Notes: generated by a model not told the origin, from the letters alone. A stretch of 64,000 bases of DNA from Octopus vulgaris (GCA_951406725.2 OX597821.1:13888001-13952000), one strand, 5' to 3'; shown: positions 8,221 to 60,344, counted from the stretch's first letter. A program made the numbers and translations.

Positions 8221-8432
8221 AGTTAATCCAAACAAGAAAAGACAAAAAACACAACAACGCGAGGACGTTGAACAAATAAAGTATTATTGGACGCTCAGGA
8301 AAGAAGGGAAGAAGGAGGGTCTAACGTTTCGAGCGGAGCTCTTCGTCGGAAACATAGGAGAAGGAAAGATCCAGAGAAGGGAAGACAGGGGAAAAAAATC
8401 GCCAACGGTACACACGAGGTCACATTTTGAAA
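8221..8432 (-). mobile_element. Hammerhead-bearing module inserted in (TA)n (Penelope-like pLTR remnant)
   Basis: Flanked by TA runs; related copy at about 30819-31010 and the start of another at 63991-64000. Confidence 0.6.
8319..8353 (-). ncRNA. Minimal type I hammerhead ribozyme-like motif
   Basis: Minus strand GTTT-CCGACGA-A-GAGC(TCC)GCTC-GAAA-CG-TT-AGAC: stem I, core, stem II, GAAA, palindromic ACGT stem III. Confidence 0.6.
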
Positions 8433-8731
8433 CTATATATATATATATGCACACACACATACACACACACACACACATATATATATATATATATAATGTG
8501 TTGGATCGCTAGCCAATACACATTCTATATTTTATCTCCTTGTTTCTTTCTGTGTTCCTTTCTATGGAAGAGCGTAGGCTCGAAACGTTAAAAACTTTTT
8601 CACTTCCCGAACGTTAAACTAATACATCTGTTTGTTGTCTACACCACCTGTCTTCGTCTTTTGTTTTCTTGTGAATTCCTCCTATATATATATATATATA
8701 TATATATATATATATATATATATATATATAT

Positions 8732-9095
8732 AATCAAATAAGTAACAGGGTGTCAAGTATTAATGCAATACGACCGTTTCAGGCGGCGCCATTTAATTGA
8801 ACAATGCAATCATTACTTTAGTTTAAATACAGTGCCATCTTTAGTTGCAAAAAATATGGATTTTAACTTATTCTCGCTATAATGGTGGCAACATGAAATT
8901 CGTTCATGCCCTAGCTCTGATAAATATCTGAGAAAAATTATCTTGATATATCTTGTCTGCTGAAAATCCATATCTTTTACAACTGAAGATTGTGCAGTAT
9001 TTAAACTGAGGAAATGCTTGCATTGTTCAATTAAATGGAGCCGCTTGAAACGGTCGTATTGCATTAATATTTGACATCCTGTTACTTAATTGATT
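8732..9095. repeat. Long inverted repeat (arms 8732-8814 / 9013-9095)
   Basis: AATCAAATAAGTAACAGGGTGTCAAG...GAACAATGCAATCATT versus AATGCTTGCATTGTTC...TGACATCCTGTTACTTAATTGATT. Confidence 0.9.
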
Positions 9096-10276
9096 TTATT
9101 CACCTTACGTCGAGCTGTGCGGATAATACCGGACTGACTTGGTGCTTCAACTTAAGTACCTAATTCAAGTGAATATTAATTTTATATACACACACACACA
9201 CACACATATATATATATATATATATATATATATATATATATATATATATATATATATATATACTTTATTTGTGTATTAAGGCTACCATTGGTTCCATGTT
9301 AAGGAATAGCTCAACAATTATTTAACCCTATCACATAGAAAAATTGGTATTCGTCTCCCTTTAATCCAAAATGGTGACGAACACTCAGTCTTTTTATGTG
9401 ATAGTCTGGAATAATTGCTGAGATATTCCTCATCCACCAATGTGGTATCAAGCATTAATTCTCATTTTTTTAATATTTATGTGTGTGTGTGTGTGTGTGT
9501 GTGTGTGTGTGTGTGTGTGTGTGTGTGTGTGTGTGTGTGTGTGTGTGTGTGTGCATGTGAGAGACAGTTGGTAAATAAAAGAAAGTAACACTCAGAATAT
9601 CTAATTATAAATGTAATCATTTAATAATTAGTACGAAACACAGCCACAACCATATACATATGCCTCGAACAAAATTTTCATCCAACTCTATTCAGTGATC
9701 AACTGAAGTACCTGACCACTGGATTATTTTTTAAGTAGCCGAGTATTAAATAGATATTTGTTCTCTGGTCGAAATTTATCAGCTCAGACAGCATAAAGCA
9801 ATGTAACGAGGTTATGCTTTTGAATTATATGTACAATTATTCCAACGGGCTTCGACACAGTTTCAATCAATCAAATTTCTCTTATAATCCATGTGTCAAC
9901 CTGGTGTTACCTGAGTTACCAAAAATGCTACGCTATGGTACCGAAACCCGGACCTCGTGATTGTAAAGTGACCACCTTAACCATTTAGTCACGCTGTCTT
10001 TTAGTCATTACAGACACACACACACATATATATATATAACGATGATGATGATGATGATATATATATTATTCATAATATATATATATATATATATATATAT
10101 ATATATATATATATATATATATATATATATATATATATATATATATATATATATATATATATATATATATATATATATATATATATATATATATATATAT
10201 ATATATATATATATATATATATATATATATATATATATATATATATATATATATATATATATATATACGTATACAT

Positions 10277-11385
10277 AAAAATATAGAAAAACTCATAGAA
10301 TTCCAGGAAATTTTAAACGGACTGGACGTAAACATCCAATTCACGATGGAATATAGCCAGCAACAACTCCCCTTCCTCGATATCCTCATTAAGAAAGCTA
10401 ATAATATAATAGAAACAGACATATATTATAAGCCTACAGATTCTAAGCAATATCTTCCATTCAATTCATGCCACCTAAGACACACCAGGATGAATATCCC
10501 CTTCAATCTAGCCAAAAGGATATGCACTATAGTCTCTAATGCAAACACCAGAGACACACGACTACAAGAACTAAAAGATACCCTTATCACCAGGAACTAT
10601 CCACCTTCACTTATTGACAAGTGCATTCAACTTAACATCAAGGAACTGAGACATCCCAAATCAAAGAAAAACTTACGACCAAAAGCCTTACCATACATCT
10701 CCACACACAACCCTCTCAATAACGAAGCCTTCGGCACCATCCTCCACAACATACCCCTCCTAAAAAAAGACCACAGAATGAACACAATCCTCCAAACACA
10801 CACGATCATAAAAAGCAAGAGGCAGCCTAAATCCATGAAAGTCCCCTAACACAAGCCCGAATTCACTCTTCAACACAGAAGCCGACAGTAAAAAAATGTG
10901 GAAGACCCAATTGCGGGATATGCGATTATCTAATTGAGGGATCAAAGTTCTCCTTCAAACAGGGACAGCGGTTTACAGTGAAAAGCAACTTCACATGTGC
11001 TTCGGAGAACCTAATATACTCACTAACCTGCTCCGGGTGTCAAGAGCAGTACATAGGCCAAACAAAAAATAGTTTGCGTAAACGAATGGCCCTGCACAGA
11101 TCCCAGATAAAAATTCCCCAAAACAGAAAAATAGCTTTCAGCCAACACATAGATACTTGCGCCAACAACAAAACACCAGGCTTCAGGATTTTTCCCCTCT
11201 ACCAATTTAGGGACGATACAACCTTGAGACAACGAATAAGTAAAGAAACTCTCTTTATTACAAAATACAGGCCACTTCTTAACGGGTCTACGACAAACGA
11301 TTAATTGTCAAAATGACCGAAATCGGTACTGAAATGTTCTTTATAAAATTATTTTAGCATTTTCTATTTTGACTTATTTTTTCAT
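10277..11385 (+). mobile_element. 5'-truncated Penelope-like retroelement (RT C-terminus, Cys-rich linker, GIY-YIG endonuclease; Neptune-like)
   Basis: Translates to ...[30 protein letters not shown]...[20 protein letters not shown]..., then after a frameshift near 10840 to KKCGRPNCGIC...FTCASENLIYSLTCSGCQEQYIGQTKNSLRKRMALH; stop at 11304; (TA)n on both sides. Confidence 0.92.
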
Positions 11386-12837
11386 ATACGTATATATATA
11401 TACATATATATATACGTATATATATATATATATATATATATATATATATATATATATATATATATATATATATATATATATATATATATATATATATATA
11501 TGCATATACATATATATACAAATATATGTATATATATATATGTGTGTGTGTATATATATATATATATGTGTGTGTGCATGTATGTATATATATTATGAAT
11601 GAATCTATATATCTGTGTGTGCGTGTGTGTGCATGTGCTATCATGTATATTTGTGTTATACGCAGTGTTTTCTGAAGAGAAGGGAAAGATCTTAGTCGTG
11701 TTTGGTAACATCACCAATTACTATGTATTCTTCCATTGTAAAGTGAAGTATTGGTTCATCCAGATCTACCAAACTTACAATAGAAATGATTAATATCAAT
11801 TCTACATATGAGATACAGTTAATAAATCTATTGATCTCTAACAATACGATTGCGAATGTCTCTAAAAAAAATTTTTTTTTTAAGCGAGAAAGAGGTCCGG
11901 TACTTAGTTCGAAGTTCAAGGAGTTCAGTAGGTGAAAATCAAAATTTCCACCATATAACGACACCAGCTTAACATTGCGTTGCTATACGATCTGTTTGTT
12001 GCTGGTGCTATTTTGGTAGTTCTCTTTATTATTTAGTCTCAGTTCTCTCCTGTTTAAGTAGACACATTAATCGTATGCATTCAATCAGAACCATCCTGCA
12101 TTTTTTCCAGTCATTTTATATGTAGAGCTTGTATTTTTTGTTGTATTTTTTGTTTTGTTATTTTTAAAGACGGTAAGATGTGGTTGGAAAAATAATTTGT
12201 TGCTATTTCTAGCATCCCGTTCCACGTCGAAGAGCAGTATTTCTCGACCACTTTTTACGAACGATACCTATTTTACGCGGATGAATCCTCCTGGTCATTC
12301 GATGTTTAAAATAAAATCATATTATATTTTGATAATTAACCCTCTCGGCCCAAGTGGTACAAAGTGGAAAGAGCTTTGAGACCGATCCCTCGGTTCGATG
12401 GAACAAATGTTGTGATGGTTGGTTTTGAAGTATAATAGCCAATTAGAGATCGTCTTTGAGTAATTATATCTCAATAGGAAAAGTAGTTTGGTCTTTTTAG
12501 CTACACTTACCAAAACACCGTGTCTCAAAAGAGCTAAATTCTATAAGGAATTGTATAAAAGAAATTTTAATATTTTGTGTATTGTAAAGGCTTAACCAAT
12601 TTATTGAAGATAAATTCATTTAAGCGACAGTGTCTTATAAAGACCCTAGTTGAGAACCATTGACGCAGAGGCTCCCTTGTTGGCTCGTGATCTGTGAGCC
12701 ATGCTCGACGGCGAGGTGAAGAGGAGTCTAGCACTTTAATATCATATCTACAAATAAATTGATAATTTGATTGCTGCAAATATTCAGCTTGTTTTGCCTT
12801 ACAACACCATCCTGCCTTCCGTGGATCACATTTGCTA

Positions 12838-59143: not shown

Positions 59144-59326
59144 CACCTAATTGATTATGATGGGAGTCTTTTGGAGTCTAATTCTCACCCTGAGGAAATA
59201 TTTAACTCAATATTTCAAGATGCAATTTTTAATTTTCAATTTGAATGAGTTGAGTATGGAAATGATTATAGGTAAAAGAGAATTTCGACAATATCCATTT
59301 TCTCTTTATATTATATTGAAATATAC

Positions 59327-59744
59327 CGCAGGAGTGGCTGTGTGGTAAGTAGCTTGCTAACCAACCACATGGTTTCGGGTTCAGTCCCACTGCGTGGCAT
59401 CTTGGGCAAGCGTCTTCTGCTATATGCCTTGTGAGTGGATTTGGTAGACGGAAACTGAAAGAAGCCTGTCGTATATATATATATATATATATATATATAT
59501 GTGTGTGTGTGTGTGTGTGTATGTGTGTGTGTTTGTCTCCCTCGCATTGCTTGACAACCGATGCTGGTGTGTTTACGTCCCCGTCACTTAGCGGTTCGGC
59601 AAAAGAGACCGATAGAATAAGTACTGGGCTTACAAAGAATAAGTCCCGGGGTCGATTTGCTCGACTAAAGGTAGTGCTCCAGCATGGCCGCAGTCAAATG
59701 ACTGAAACAAGTAAAAGAGTAAAAGAGTAAAAGAGTAAAAGAGT
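59327..59744 (+). mobile_element. SINE family A
   Basis: Near full length, (GTAAAAGA)n tail. Confidence 0.9.
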
Positions 59745-60060
59745 ATACCCATATTTATCAAAGTGTAATAATCATTAAACTTCGTAATATTCTTAATTGG
59801 TCCCTATTTTAAACAATGAGCACCAATACTATTAAGTTATATTGGATTCTTGAAAATTTTCTTAGATACATAAGATTAAACCAGTGAAGCTTGGGTGTTG
59901 ACATCGCATTTAAGACATATCTGTATCCTCAAAATGGCTTATATATATATATATATATATATATATATATATATATATATATATATATATAGTTTTTTTT
60001 TTGGGGGGGGGAAACATAGTTCCAGAGAAGAAACACACTCTAAGAAGCAGAGCAGTCTAT

Positions 60061-60220
60061 ATTAATTACTGGTGAAGGCTGGTTCATAGGGTTACCCGGG
60101 GTTTCTTGACATAAAGAGTACCTTCATGGTATATCTTCAAACCCTAAAACCTGGAGGCCATAGACCAGCAGTTTTTAGGGTCTGAAGAAACCCTATAAAC
60201 TGGCCTTCACCAGTAATAAT
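60061..60220. repeat. Short inverted repeat
   Basis: ATTACTGGTGAAGGCTGGTTCATAGGGTT versus AACCCTATAAACTGGCCTTCACCAGTAAT. Confidence 0.8.
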
Positions 60221-60296
60221 TGTATATATATATATATATATATATATATACCTCTCTTTCTATTTTGTATCACATCTAAACTAACTATGACTTAAC

Positions 60297-60344
60297 CATC
60301 CTGATGAAGGGATATAATAAATATCCTGGAAACAACTGTAAGAC
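60297..60344 (+). ncRNA. Hammerhead-like motif, sister of 15885-15932
   Basis: CTGATGA-A-GGGATAT(AATAA)ATATCCT-G-GAAA-CAACTG-TA-AGAC; the 5' strand of stem I appears deleted. Confidence 0.5.

What the first reader, a model, noticed from the sequence alone, without database searches (positions are those of the whole stretch)
8221..60344. Dispersed, diversified minimal hammerhead ribozymes in (TA)n-associated modules
At least nine motifs from about six sequence families show type I hammerhead geometry (stem I, CUGANGA-like core, stem II, GAAA, short or palindromic stem III, UH): 8319-8353, 15496-15554, 15885-15932, 28143-28199, 28945-28982, 30906-30940, 31379-31420, 49775-49824 and 60297-60344. 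Decayed ones lie at about 8557, 23590, 23941, 47628 and 49183. Most sit in 100-300 bp modules next to or inside (TA)n. Minimal hammerheads with palindromic stem III are established for Penelope-like pLTRs and metazoan retrozymes and are thought to cleave as dimers. Recurrent departures here (U4C, one extra purine after A9, stem III reduced to ACGT) suggest a lineage-specific radiation of non-autonomous ribozyme retroelements mobilised by elements like the one at 10277 (inference). Plus-strand copies (15885, 28945) would lie in the NOS1AP pre-mRNA.
Basis: partly seen in the sequence, partly recalled or inferred. Interest (0 to 1): 0.8.

Follow-up and report, generated by a model that had tools for sequence, protein, structure and literature searches.

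The report
Penelope retroelement ends with swapped-core hammerhead
Most of these self-cutting-RNA motifs are the ordinary, largely worn-out tail ends of Penelope-like jumping genes, but one abundant family carries the two paired catalytic letters in swapped order, a form I found described only as a laboratory mutant; whether it cuts is untested.

Summary
The motifs are real and above chance (5 strong descriptor hits vs 0.24 in shuffles), but only 8319, 15885 and 49775 have a complete core with both stems. The rest are damaged; 23941 is unconfirmed. Two of the three claimed departures (extra nucleotide after A9, stem III cut to ACGU) are the published hallmarks of Penelope-like-element (PLE) minimal hammerheads. 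U4C is known from a viroid. The layout (hammerhead, 70-140 nt tail, (TA)n; opposite-strand pairs; inverted tail copies) matches PLE 3' ends, including PLE loci fetched here. No tandem retrozyme arrays were seen. Contigs of four runs show a highly repeated family with no other base at 3% or more across positions 3-9, while loop 2 varies. I found G3:C8 in print only as an engineered partial-rescue mutant; one key paper (Lunse et al.) was unavailable. Cleavage, expression and the parent element are not shown. Verdict: known class, one probably new core variant.

The parts
49636..49843 (-). Family D element between two (TA)n tracts: 19-nt leader, hammerhead, 84-nt tail, and an optional 55-nt extension (49636-49690)
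   Evidence: many contigs end in (TA)n at 49691-49696
49775..49824 (-). Minimal type I hammerhead with swapped G3:C8 pair (G3 = 49817, C8 = 49812), extra G after A9, 7-bp stem I, 5-bp stem II with G10.1-C11.1, 6-nt palindromic stem III, U17; predicted cut between 49782 and 49781
   Evidence: family-wide constancy
8319..8353 (-). Family A min-HHR, U4C, extra A, ACGU stem III; module about 8219-8434
30906..30940 (-). Family A min-HHR, U4C, one stem I mismatch
8557..8600 (+). Family B min-HHR, decayed core; head-to-head with 8319
28945..28982 (+). Family B min-HHR, A6U, stems intact
15496..15554 (-). Family E hammerhead, canonical core, frayed stem II; head-to-head with 15885 in a composite of about 15353-16023
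15885..15932 (+). Family C hammerhead, U4C, 8-nt palindromic stem III
60297..60344 (+). Family C copy (92% to 15885 over 86 nt), stem I lost, tail interrupted by a SINE-like repeat
28143..28199 (-). Family C-related copy, G8 missing
23494..23801 (-). Decayed family C-related hammerhead (23590-23646) with an inverted copy of its own tail on the 5' side (82-nt arms, 84%)
31379..31420 (-). Decayed hammerhead, core words intact, stem II lost
47628..47665 (+). Decayed hammerhead-like relic with a homologue at about 25843-25905 (-); no stem I
49183..49215 (-). Core words with weak stems; doubtful relic
10268..11390 (+). 5'-truncated Penelope-like element in (TA)n: RT end/thumb region (10268-10849), frame break near 10840, CX4CX2C linker and GIY-YIG endonuclease (10831-11304), 87-nt 3' end
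35005..40703 (+). 3' exons of a NOS1AP/CAPON-like gene (context)

Best explanation
The modules are 3'-terminal (pseudo-LTR) pieces of several families of endonuclease-bearing Penelope-like retroelements, probably Neptune-type, inserted into (TA)n tracts of an octopod genome. Shown: hammerhead geometry, a tail of about 70-140 nt, a (TA)n junction, variable 5' ends, inverted and head-to-head arrangements, and the same layout behind PLE ORFs elsewhere. Inferred from published PLE biology: a PLE protein nicks AT-rich DNA and starts reverse transcription shortly downstream of the hammerhead; most insertions stop early, leaving only the hammerhead-bearing end. In the source elements the hammerhead would cut the tandem precursor as a dimer through its palindrome, or with help from the PLE protein. 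Most copies here are now dead. Family D (49775) is such an end whose source element fixed a compensated G3:C8 pair, which should keep the active-site geometry at a reduced rate.
For: The extra nucleotide after A9, G10.1-C11.1, palindromic 15.2-16.2, U-rich upstream flank, single dispersed copies and opposite-strand pairs are published PLE min-HHR traits. Inverted 5'-truncated copies, an optional 30-40 bp tail and (TA)n preference are PLE traits; 23494-23801 shows such an inversion and family D has an optional 55-nt 3' extension and opposite-strand joints at 49821-49824. Of 8 fetched PLE loci checked behind the ORF, 5 have a hammerhead-like core 149-772 nt downstream, 2 with full stems by the strict descriptor; in the two closest (L017, L018) a (TA)3+ run follows 52 and 59 nt later. 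A PLE fragment with the CX4CX2C linker sits in (TA)n in the window. 60297 starts 47 nt upstream of its motif at a (TA)n tract while its sibling 15885 runs on. Family D: no other base at >=3% at 49811-49817 in 4 of 4 runs; a subfamily with a different loop 2 keeps stem II and the swapped core in 4 of 4 runs.
Against: No module is physically joined to PLE coding sequence: 122 PLE proteins hit only 10286-11283, and that fragment's 87-nt 3' end has no recognisable hammerhead. 3 of the 8 fetched PLE loci showed no core (one has only 171 nt of flank). Lower variation in the D hammerhead than in its tail is not significant (non-CpG listed variants 1 of 35 vs 11 of 125, P 0.21), and its stems show no two-sided covariation. 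The D palindrome is a very weak duplex (-0.2 kcal/mol). In their module context 8319 and 28945 do not fold as hammerheads. D's short leader and terminal-repeat-like ends fit a stand-alone short element as well. No cleavage data.
Confidence: 0.62

Rival explanations
1. Some families, D above all, are true short non-autonomous elements that borrow PLE proteins, rather than truncation products of coding elements.
For: D is about 150-210 bp and very abundant (17,373, 7,853, 4,830 and 1,290 contigs laid in four runs); loose ends lose agreement about 16-20 nt upstream of the hammerhead. No PLE coding remnant lies next to any module. Non-autonomous PLE derivatives are published (Chlamys MRC1; retrozymes from pLTRs).
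Against: 5' ends differ among family C members; some D contigs continue past 49839 with a shared start, hinting at a longer parent; truncation alone is the published explanation of single min-HHRs.
Confidence: 0.25
2. They are non-LTR retrozymes that amplify as tandem repeats through circular RNA.
For: 47628, 25905 and 49183 lack the extra nucleotide and have a short stem II with an AAUA-containing loop, closer to canonical type I motifs; one D joint goes back 105 nt in 3 of 4 runs.
Against: No adjacent head-to-tail copy for any of 15 query regions; retrozymes carry canonical motifs in tandem units, and the intact motifs here are of the minimal PLE type.
Confidence: 0.05
3. Element D is a MITE or other non-retro repeat whose nested hairpins resemble a hammerhead by chance; G3 and C8 then just mean it is not a hammerhead.
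For: Its ends resemble 10-nt terminal inverted repeats flanked by TA; two of the conserved core letters are non-canonical; no covariation seen.
Against: All other core positions, the junction lengths, G10.1-C11.1, the palindrome and UH are correct; no shuffle of 100 reached the score. Many copies end at 49691-49696, so the left 'terminal repeat' is optional. Two changes falling on the one paired couple among 11 core positions and ending complementary has a chance of about 1/55 x 1/3 (my arithmetic).
Confidence: 0.05
4. Intronic copies are host-retained ribozymes that regulate NOS1AP pre-mRNA.
For: 8557, 15885 and 28945 are on the gene's strand upstream of the first mapped exon.
Against: Two of the three have broken cores and the third is a lone monomer with U4C; min-HHR monomers showed no cleavage. 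All belong to repeat families.
Confidence: 0.03

Closest known systems
Minimal hammerheads (min-HHR) of metazoan Penelope-like elements (Cervera & de la Pena 2014, PMC4209133)
   Same: Type I, 4-7 bp stem I, extra nucleotide after A9, G10.1-C11.1, palindromic or absent stem III, many families per genome, dispersed single copies, opposite-strand pairs.
   Different: U4C in two families and G3:C8 in family D are not among the representative motifs I read in its Fig. S3 text; no cephalopod is listed there; extra nucleotide G in D is rare (consensus H).
U3:A8 core variant (Schistosoma Cercyon PLEs, about 1,300 hits, PMC4209133; Perreault et al. 2011, PMC3088659)
   Same: Natural compensated change of the 3:8 Watson-Crick pair, in a PLE family.
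   Different: Here the pair is G3:C8.
Engineered C3G/G8C hammerhead of the Anolis Poseidon element PAc (Frangieh et al. 2024, PMC11167929)
   Same: Same swap in a PLE hammerhead; singles are dead, the double partly restores cleavage.
   Different: Laboratory mutant of a Poseidon element; family D carries it naturally and at high copy; activity untested.
Neptune/Nematis-type EN+ PLEs (Craig et al. 2021, PMC8557442)
   Same: C-terminal GIY-YIG, CX2-5CxxC linker, (TA)n targets, 5' truncation, inversions, optional tail.
   Different: Clade not placed on a tree here; link between the hammerhead modules and a coding element not shown in this genome.
Metazoan non-LTR retrozymes (Cervera & de la Pena 2020, PMC7229834; Li et al. 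preprint 10.64898/2026.07.22.740005)
   Same: Short non-coding units with type I hammerheads, PLE-related.
   Different: Those are tandem repeats with canonical motifs and circular RNAs; these are dispersed single minimal motifs.

Membership tests
PLE minimal hammerhead | CUGANGA...GAAA...UH core closed by stems I and II | tested here: inconclusive
   Geometry complete in 8319, 15885, 49775 but each with a core variant (U4C, U4C, G3:C8); canonical core with a damaged stem in 15496, 31379, 60297.
PLE minimal hammerhead | Extra nucleotide between A9 and 10.1 | tested here: met
   8319, 30906, 8557, 28945, 15496, 15885, 60297, 31379, 49775.
PLE minimal hammerhead | Palindromic, very short stem III | tested here: met
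   4-nt, 6-nt and 8-nt palindromes in families A/B, D and C.
PLE minimal hammerhead | Located in the pLTR of a PLE ORF | tested here: inconclusive
   No module joined to coding sequence; same layout behind 5 of 8 fetched PLE ORFs; no genome held.
PLE minimal hammerhead | Self-cleavage as dimer or with protein help | not testable with these tools
   Needs in vitro assay.
EN+ PLE, Neptune/Nematis type (10268 fragment) | RT followed by C-terminal GIY-YIG | tested here: met
   PF01541 E 3e-5; 53-64% identity to RT+EN proteins.
EN+ PLE, Neptune/Nematis type (10268 fragment) | CX2-5CxxC linker | tested here: met
   CX4CX2C in P0002; motif definition.
EN+ PLE, Neptune/Nematis type (10268 fragment) | RT phylogeny places it in Neptune | not tested
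EN+ PLE, Neptune/Nematis type (10268 fragment) | Hammerhead in the 3' pLTR | tested here: not met
   No descriptor hit in 11280-11390; a hairpin plus GAAA there may be a relic.
Non-LTR retrozyme | Tandem units each with a hammerhead | tested here: not met
   No adjacent copies in the window; genome-wide arrays not testable.
Non-LTR retrozyme | Canonical type I motif (6-bp stem I, 4-bp stem II, loop-loop contacts) | tested here: not met
   Intact motifs are minimal-type; no Rfam hammerhead match or the shown rows.
Non-LTR retrozyme | Circular RNA intermediates | not testable with these tools
   Only contigs were available.

The most novel reading that the evidence does not exclude
Family D is an active natural G3:C8 hammerhead carried by a very successful short, non-autonomous PLE-dependent element of octopods. 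Its source crossed a catalytically dead single-mutant state and fixed the compensating change, which would be evolutionary evidence that cleavage (or the cleavage-ready fold) is under selection in PLE transposition, a point left open by in vitro work. Because standard descriptors demand C3/G8, such families would be invisible to past searches, and octopod genomes may hold far more hammerheads than counted (about one motif or relic per 5 kb in this single window).
Probability: 0.3. Interest if true: 0.7.

Novelty: new variant of a known kind. Interest (0 to 1): 0.42.

Why it matters
The role of PLE hammerheads is unresolved: in vitro they are slow, one needs the PLE protein, and its cleavage was not needed for insertion. 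A high-copy natural family with a compensated 3:8 swap is a ready test of whether the active site is selected, and a warning that C3/G8-fixed descriptors miss whole families. Practically, it annotates short (TA)n-flanked repeats of an octopod genome as PLE ends; a 2026 curated Octopus vulgaris repeat annotation does not mention ribozymes in its main text. The rest of the finding is ordinary.

Tried and rejected
No whole genome is held, so no genome-wide family alignments or copy counts could be made.

Rfam: no hammerhead among the 150 of 326 rows shown, nor in 15400-15990 or 49100-49545; 49775 was not scanned locally.

My first descriptor was too strict and was replaced.

An exact 19-nt D motif gave 16 metagenome hits, 16 of 16 without the rest of the motif and taken as chance, and 0 viral hits. 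A family B motif gave 0 viral hits.

PLE protein scans: nothing with a single protein in genome contigs or with the alignment in viral contigs.

Family D DNA was not found in 5 of 5 genome bins behind PLE loci, and a G3:C8 pattern was at control level there. G001 matched the window's SINE-like repeat only through microsatellites.

A sequence-only model from 12 motifs recovered 9 of its 10 window training motifs and nothing new; in 14 PLE loci it hit only 1 training motif. Uninformative.

Expression: no RNA holder listed; run X17 is only guessed to be RNA.

Five short motifs were absent from the Craig et al. supplement, so no match to its consensus sequences as held.

Protein atlas and PDB searches did not identify the host exon; a homologue search did.

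Rejected: 23941 as a hammerhead; extra purine and ACGU as novelties; tandem retrozymes; cleavage of NOS1AP pre-mRNA.
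Full report
Setting. The window is 35.6% GC and 18% simple repeat. The nearest named relative of its host gene is from the octopod Argonauta hians, followed by molluscan NOS1AP/CAPON proteins. 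Exons map on the plus strand at 35005-35142, 36547-36717, 38000-38140 and 38943-40700; the PTB-domain exons are not in the window, apart from one weak hit at 19689. So 1-35000 is probably intron (inference). That the abundant dispersed repeat is an octopus SINE is my recollection, not a tool result. No genome is held.

Observation. The nine stretches are where stated. Descriptor scans put them above chance as a set: 3 hits at score >=9 vs 0.12 in 100 shuffles, and 5 at score >=6 vs 0.24 in 200 shuffles. The descriptors were written after seeing the motifs. The permissive scan found 6 of the 9 and 0 of the 5 'decayed' sites. Only 8319, 15885 and 49775 have a full core with both stems. 30906 and 15496 are close; 28945 (A6U), 28143 (G8 missing), 60297 (stem I lost) and 31379 (stem II lost) are broken; 23941 is unconfirmed. 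Self-comparison groups them as A (8319, 30906), B (8557, 28945), C (15885, 60297; 28143, 23590), and singletons 15496, 31379, 49775, plus the 47628/25905 pair. A and B share a downstream motif. 8 of 11 have a (TA)>=5 tract within 200 nt downstream against a background of 0.158; upstream it is 6 of 11. Two of the three exceptions end at a shorter TA run and the third is cut by another repeat.

The claimed departures. [quoted passage not shown] The commonest stem III in their alignment is GAAA-C-G-U-H, which is the 'ACGT' of the finding. They also report many families per genome, mostly single copies attributed to truncated PLEs, opposite-strand pairs 100-700 bp apart (as 8319/8557 and 15496/15885 here), and a U3:A8 family. 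U4C is known from a viroid, with reduced activity (PMC3088659, passages). I did not see U4C in their PLE alignment. It occurs in 5 window copies of families A and C; 60297 has U4, which could be CpG decay (inference). So U4C looks like a real family trait but a minor one.

What the modules are. Each has a pyrimidine-rich upstream part of variable length, the hammerhead, a tail of about 70-140 nt, and (TA)n. 23494-23801 carries an inverted copy of its own tail. Inverted 5'-truncated copies, an optional 30-40 bp tail and (TA)n targeting linked to the CX2-5CxxC linker are PLE traits (PMC8557442, passages and supplement searches). In the Anolis element, reverse transcription starts about 111-118 nt into the ORF, which begins inside the hammerhead (PMC11167929, parts 1-2 of 4). 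The window's own PLE fragment (10268-11390) sits in (TA)n, has that linker and a GIY-YIG domain. With an alignment of its relatives I fetched 40 loci and checked the 8 whose match reaches the endonuclease region. 5 of 8 have a hammerhead-like core 149-772 nt behind the match, 2 with full stems under the strict descriptor; in the two closest relatives a (TA)3+ run follows 52 and 59 nt later. These loci lie in bacterial bins and are presumably host contamination (inference). Against: 122 PLE proteins hit nothing in the window but 10286-11283, that fragment has no recognisable hammerhead, and no module shares DNA with it. The PLE origin therefore rests on architecture, and truncated versus non-autonomous cannot be decided. 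No tandem copies were seen, which argues against retrozymes as defined in PMC7229834 (passages) and the 2026 preprint (parts 1-3 of 5; its supplements are closed).

Family D. 49775-49824 (minus) has a 7-bp stem I, core G3-U4-G5-A6-A7-C8-A9, one extra G, a 5-bp stem II opening with G10.1-C11.1, G12-A13-A14, a 6-nt palindrome and U17. It folds with z -3.4 and both stems persist in the 208-nt element (pair probabilities 0.66-0.92 and 0.99-1.0). The palindrome is a weak duplex (-0.2 kcal/mol). I laid contigs of 4 of the 24 listed runs (three organism labels, at most three studies, none flagged as a possible source) on 49624-49855 at 80% likeness: 17,373, 7,853, 4,830 and 1,290 contigs. The tool warns that summed depth is no copy number. 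Still, about 0.7-0.9 million over the core in X3 against 25-54 for long pieces leaves several hundred copies even after a 31-fold overlap discount (my inference). No other base at 3% or more was listed at 49811-49817 in any run, so G3 and C8 are the family state; a C3:G8 minority under 3% is not excluded. The 4 listed variants among 42 non-loop positions are one that keeps a U-G pair in stem I and three CpG transitions of 3.5-5.8%, one of them at G12. Loop 2 varies at 3 of 8 positions plus an insertion, and a subfamily with a different loop 2 keeps stem II and the swapped core in 4 of 4 runs. The contrast with the tail is not significant (1 of 35 vs 11 of 125 non-CpG positions, P 0.21), and there is no two-sided covariation. 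Many contigs end in (TA)n at 49691-49696, making 49636-49690 an optional extension like a PLE tail; opposite-strand joints occur at 49821-49824.

Mechanism, with odds. Shown: geometry, family constancy, junctions. From the literature: the 2'-OH of residue 8 is the general acid and the 3:8 pair positions it; G8C lowers the rate about 100,000-fold and C3G partly restores it (PMC8495972, PMC6155905, passages); the same holds for a PLE hammerhead, which cut only with the PLE protein and was not needed for insertion in vitro. Inferred: source elements cut tandem precursors as dimers or with protein help; copies here are passive remnants. Two changes confined to the one paired couple among 11 core positions, and complementary, are unlikely under neutral decay (about 0.006, my arithmetic), so selection on the fold is likely. 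I put truncated PLE ends at 0.62, short non-autonomous PLE parasites at 0.25, retrozymes and a chance MITE fold at 0.05 each, host use at 0.03.

Novelty. Searches for hammerhead ribozyme with octopus or cephalopod, with Penelope terms, octopus with Penelope, and C3G/G8C, G3-C8 or natural variants gave no description of octopod PLE hammerheads and no natural G3:C8. The squid genome paper counts 235 Rfam hammerhead-1 hits (PMC6962438, passage). G3:C8 appears as an engineered variant. The O. vulgaris repeat paper has no 'ribozyme' or 'hammerhead' in its main text (PMC13282606, part 1 of 3 and term search). PMC7151607 and PMC6765202 were seen as passages. Lunse et al., on small PLE hammerhead variants, is not held; I saw only its citation, and it could already contain these variants. 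Figure supplements of PMC3088659 were not read. Two earlier unchecked scan notes report G3:C8 motifs behind PLE RTs in other genomes; they are leads only.

Verdict. A real but mostly ordinary set of PLE ends, with one probably undescribed natural core variant fixed in an abundant family. Interest 0.42; new variant of a known kind.

Noticed in passing
window 46982-47037 (-): Further hammerhead candidate not in the finding: canonical core, 7-bp stem II, near-palindromic stem III, but a stem I made largely of G-U pairs and no (TA)n nearby.
   Followed up: partly
window 8728-9099: Inverted pair (137-nt arms, 88%, 98-nt spacer) ending in (TA)n, with a CUGAAGA core word near 8983; possibly another PLE end with its inversion and a decayed hammerhead.
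   Followed up: partly
window 60058-60224: Nested inverted repeats with a CUGAAGA word in one arm, directly upstream of the 60297 module.
   Followed up: no
window 25843-25905 (-): Decayed homologue of the 47628 motif, 80% over 50 nt.
   Followed up: partly
window 11285-11340 (+): Small hairpin followed by GAAA behind the PLE ORF stop; may be a heavily decayed hammerhead.
   Followed up: partly
window 4282-5162 (-): Broken transposase-like frames resembling a mariner element (family name recalled, only a weak HTH hit).
   Followed up: no
window 15885, 60297; L041:4542; L017:1852: An extra unpaired nucleotide before GAAA recurs in family C and in two PLE-linked motifs elsewhere; may be a real structural variant.
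   Followed up: no
window 49767-49824: A joint from 49824 to 49767 at depth 431 in run X3 (table 5c); its kind is not shown, so it may be an inversion or a tandem duplication of the whole hammerhead.
   Followed up: no
L017-L056: Intact-looking or fragmentary PLE sequences inside bacterial genome bins, presumably animal host contamination.
   Followed up: partly
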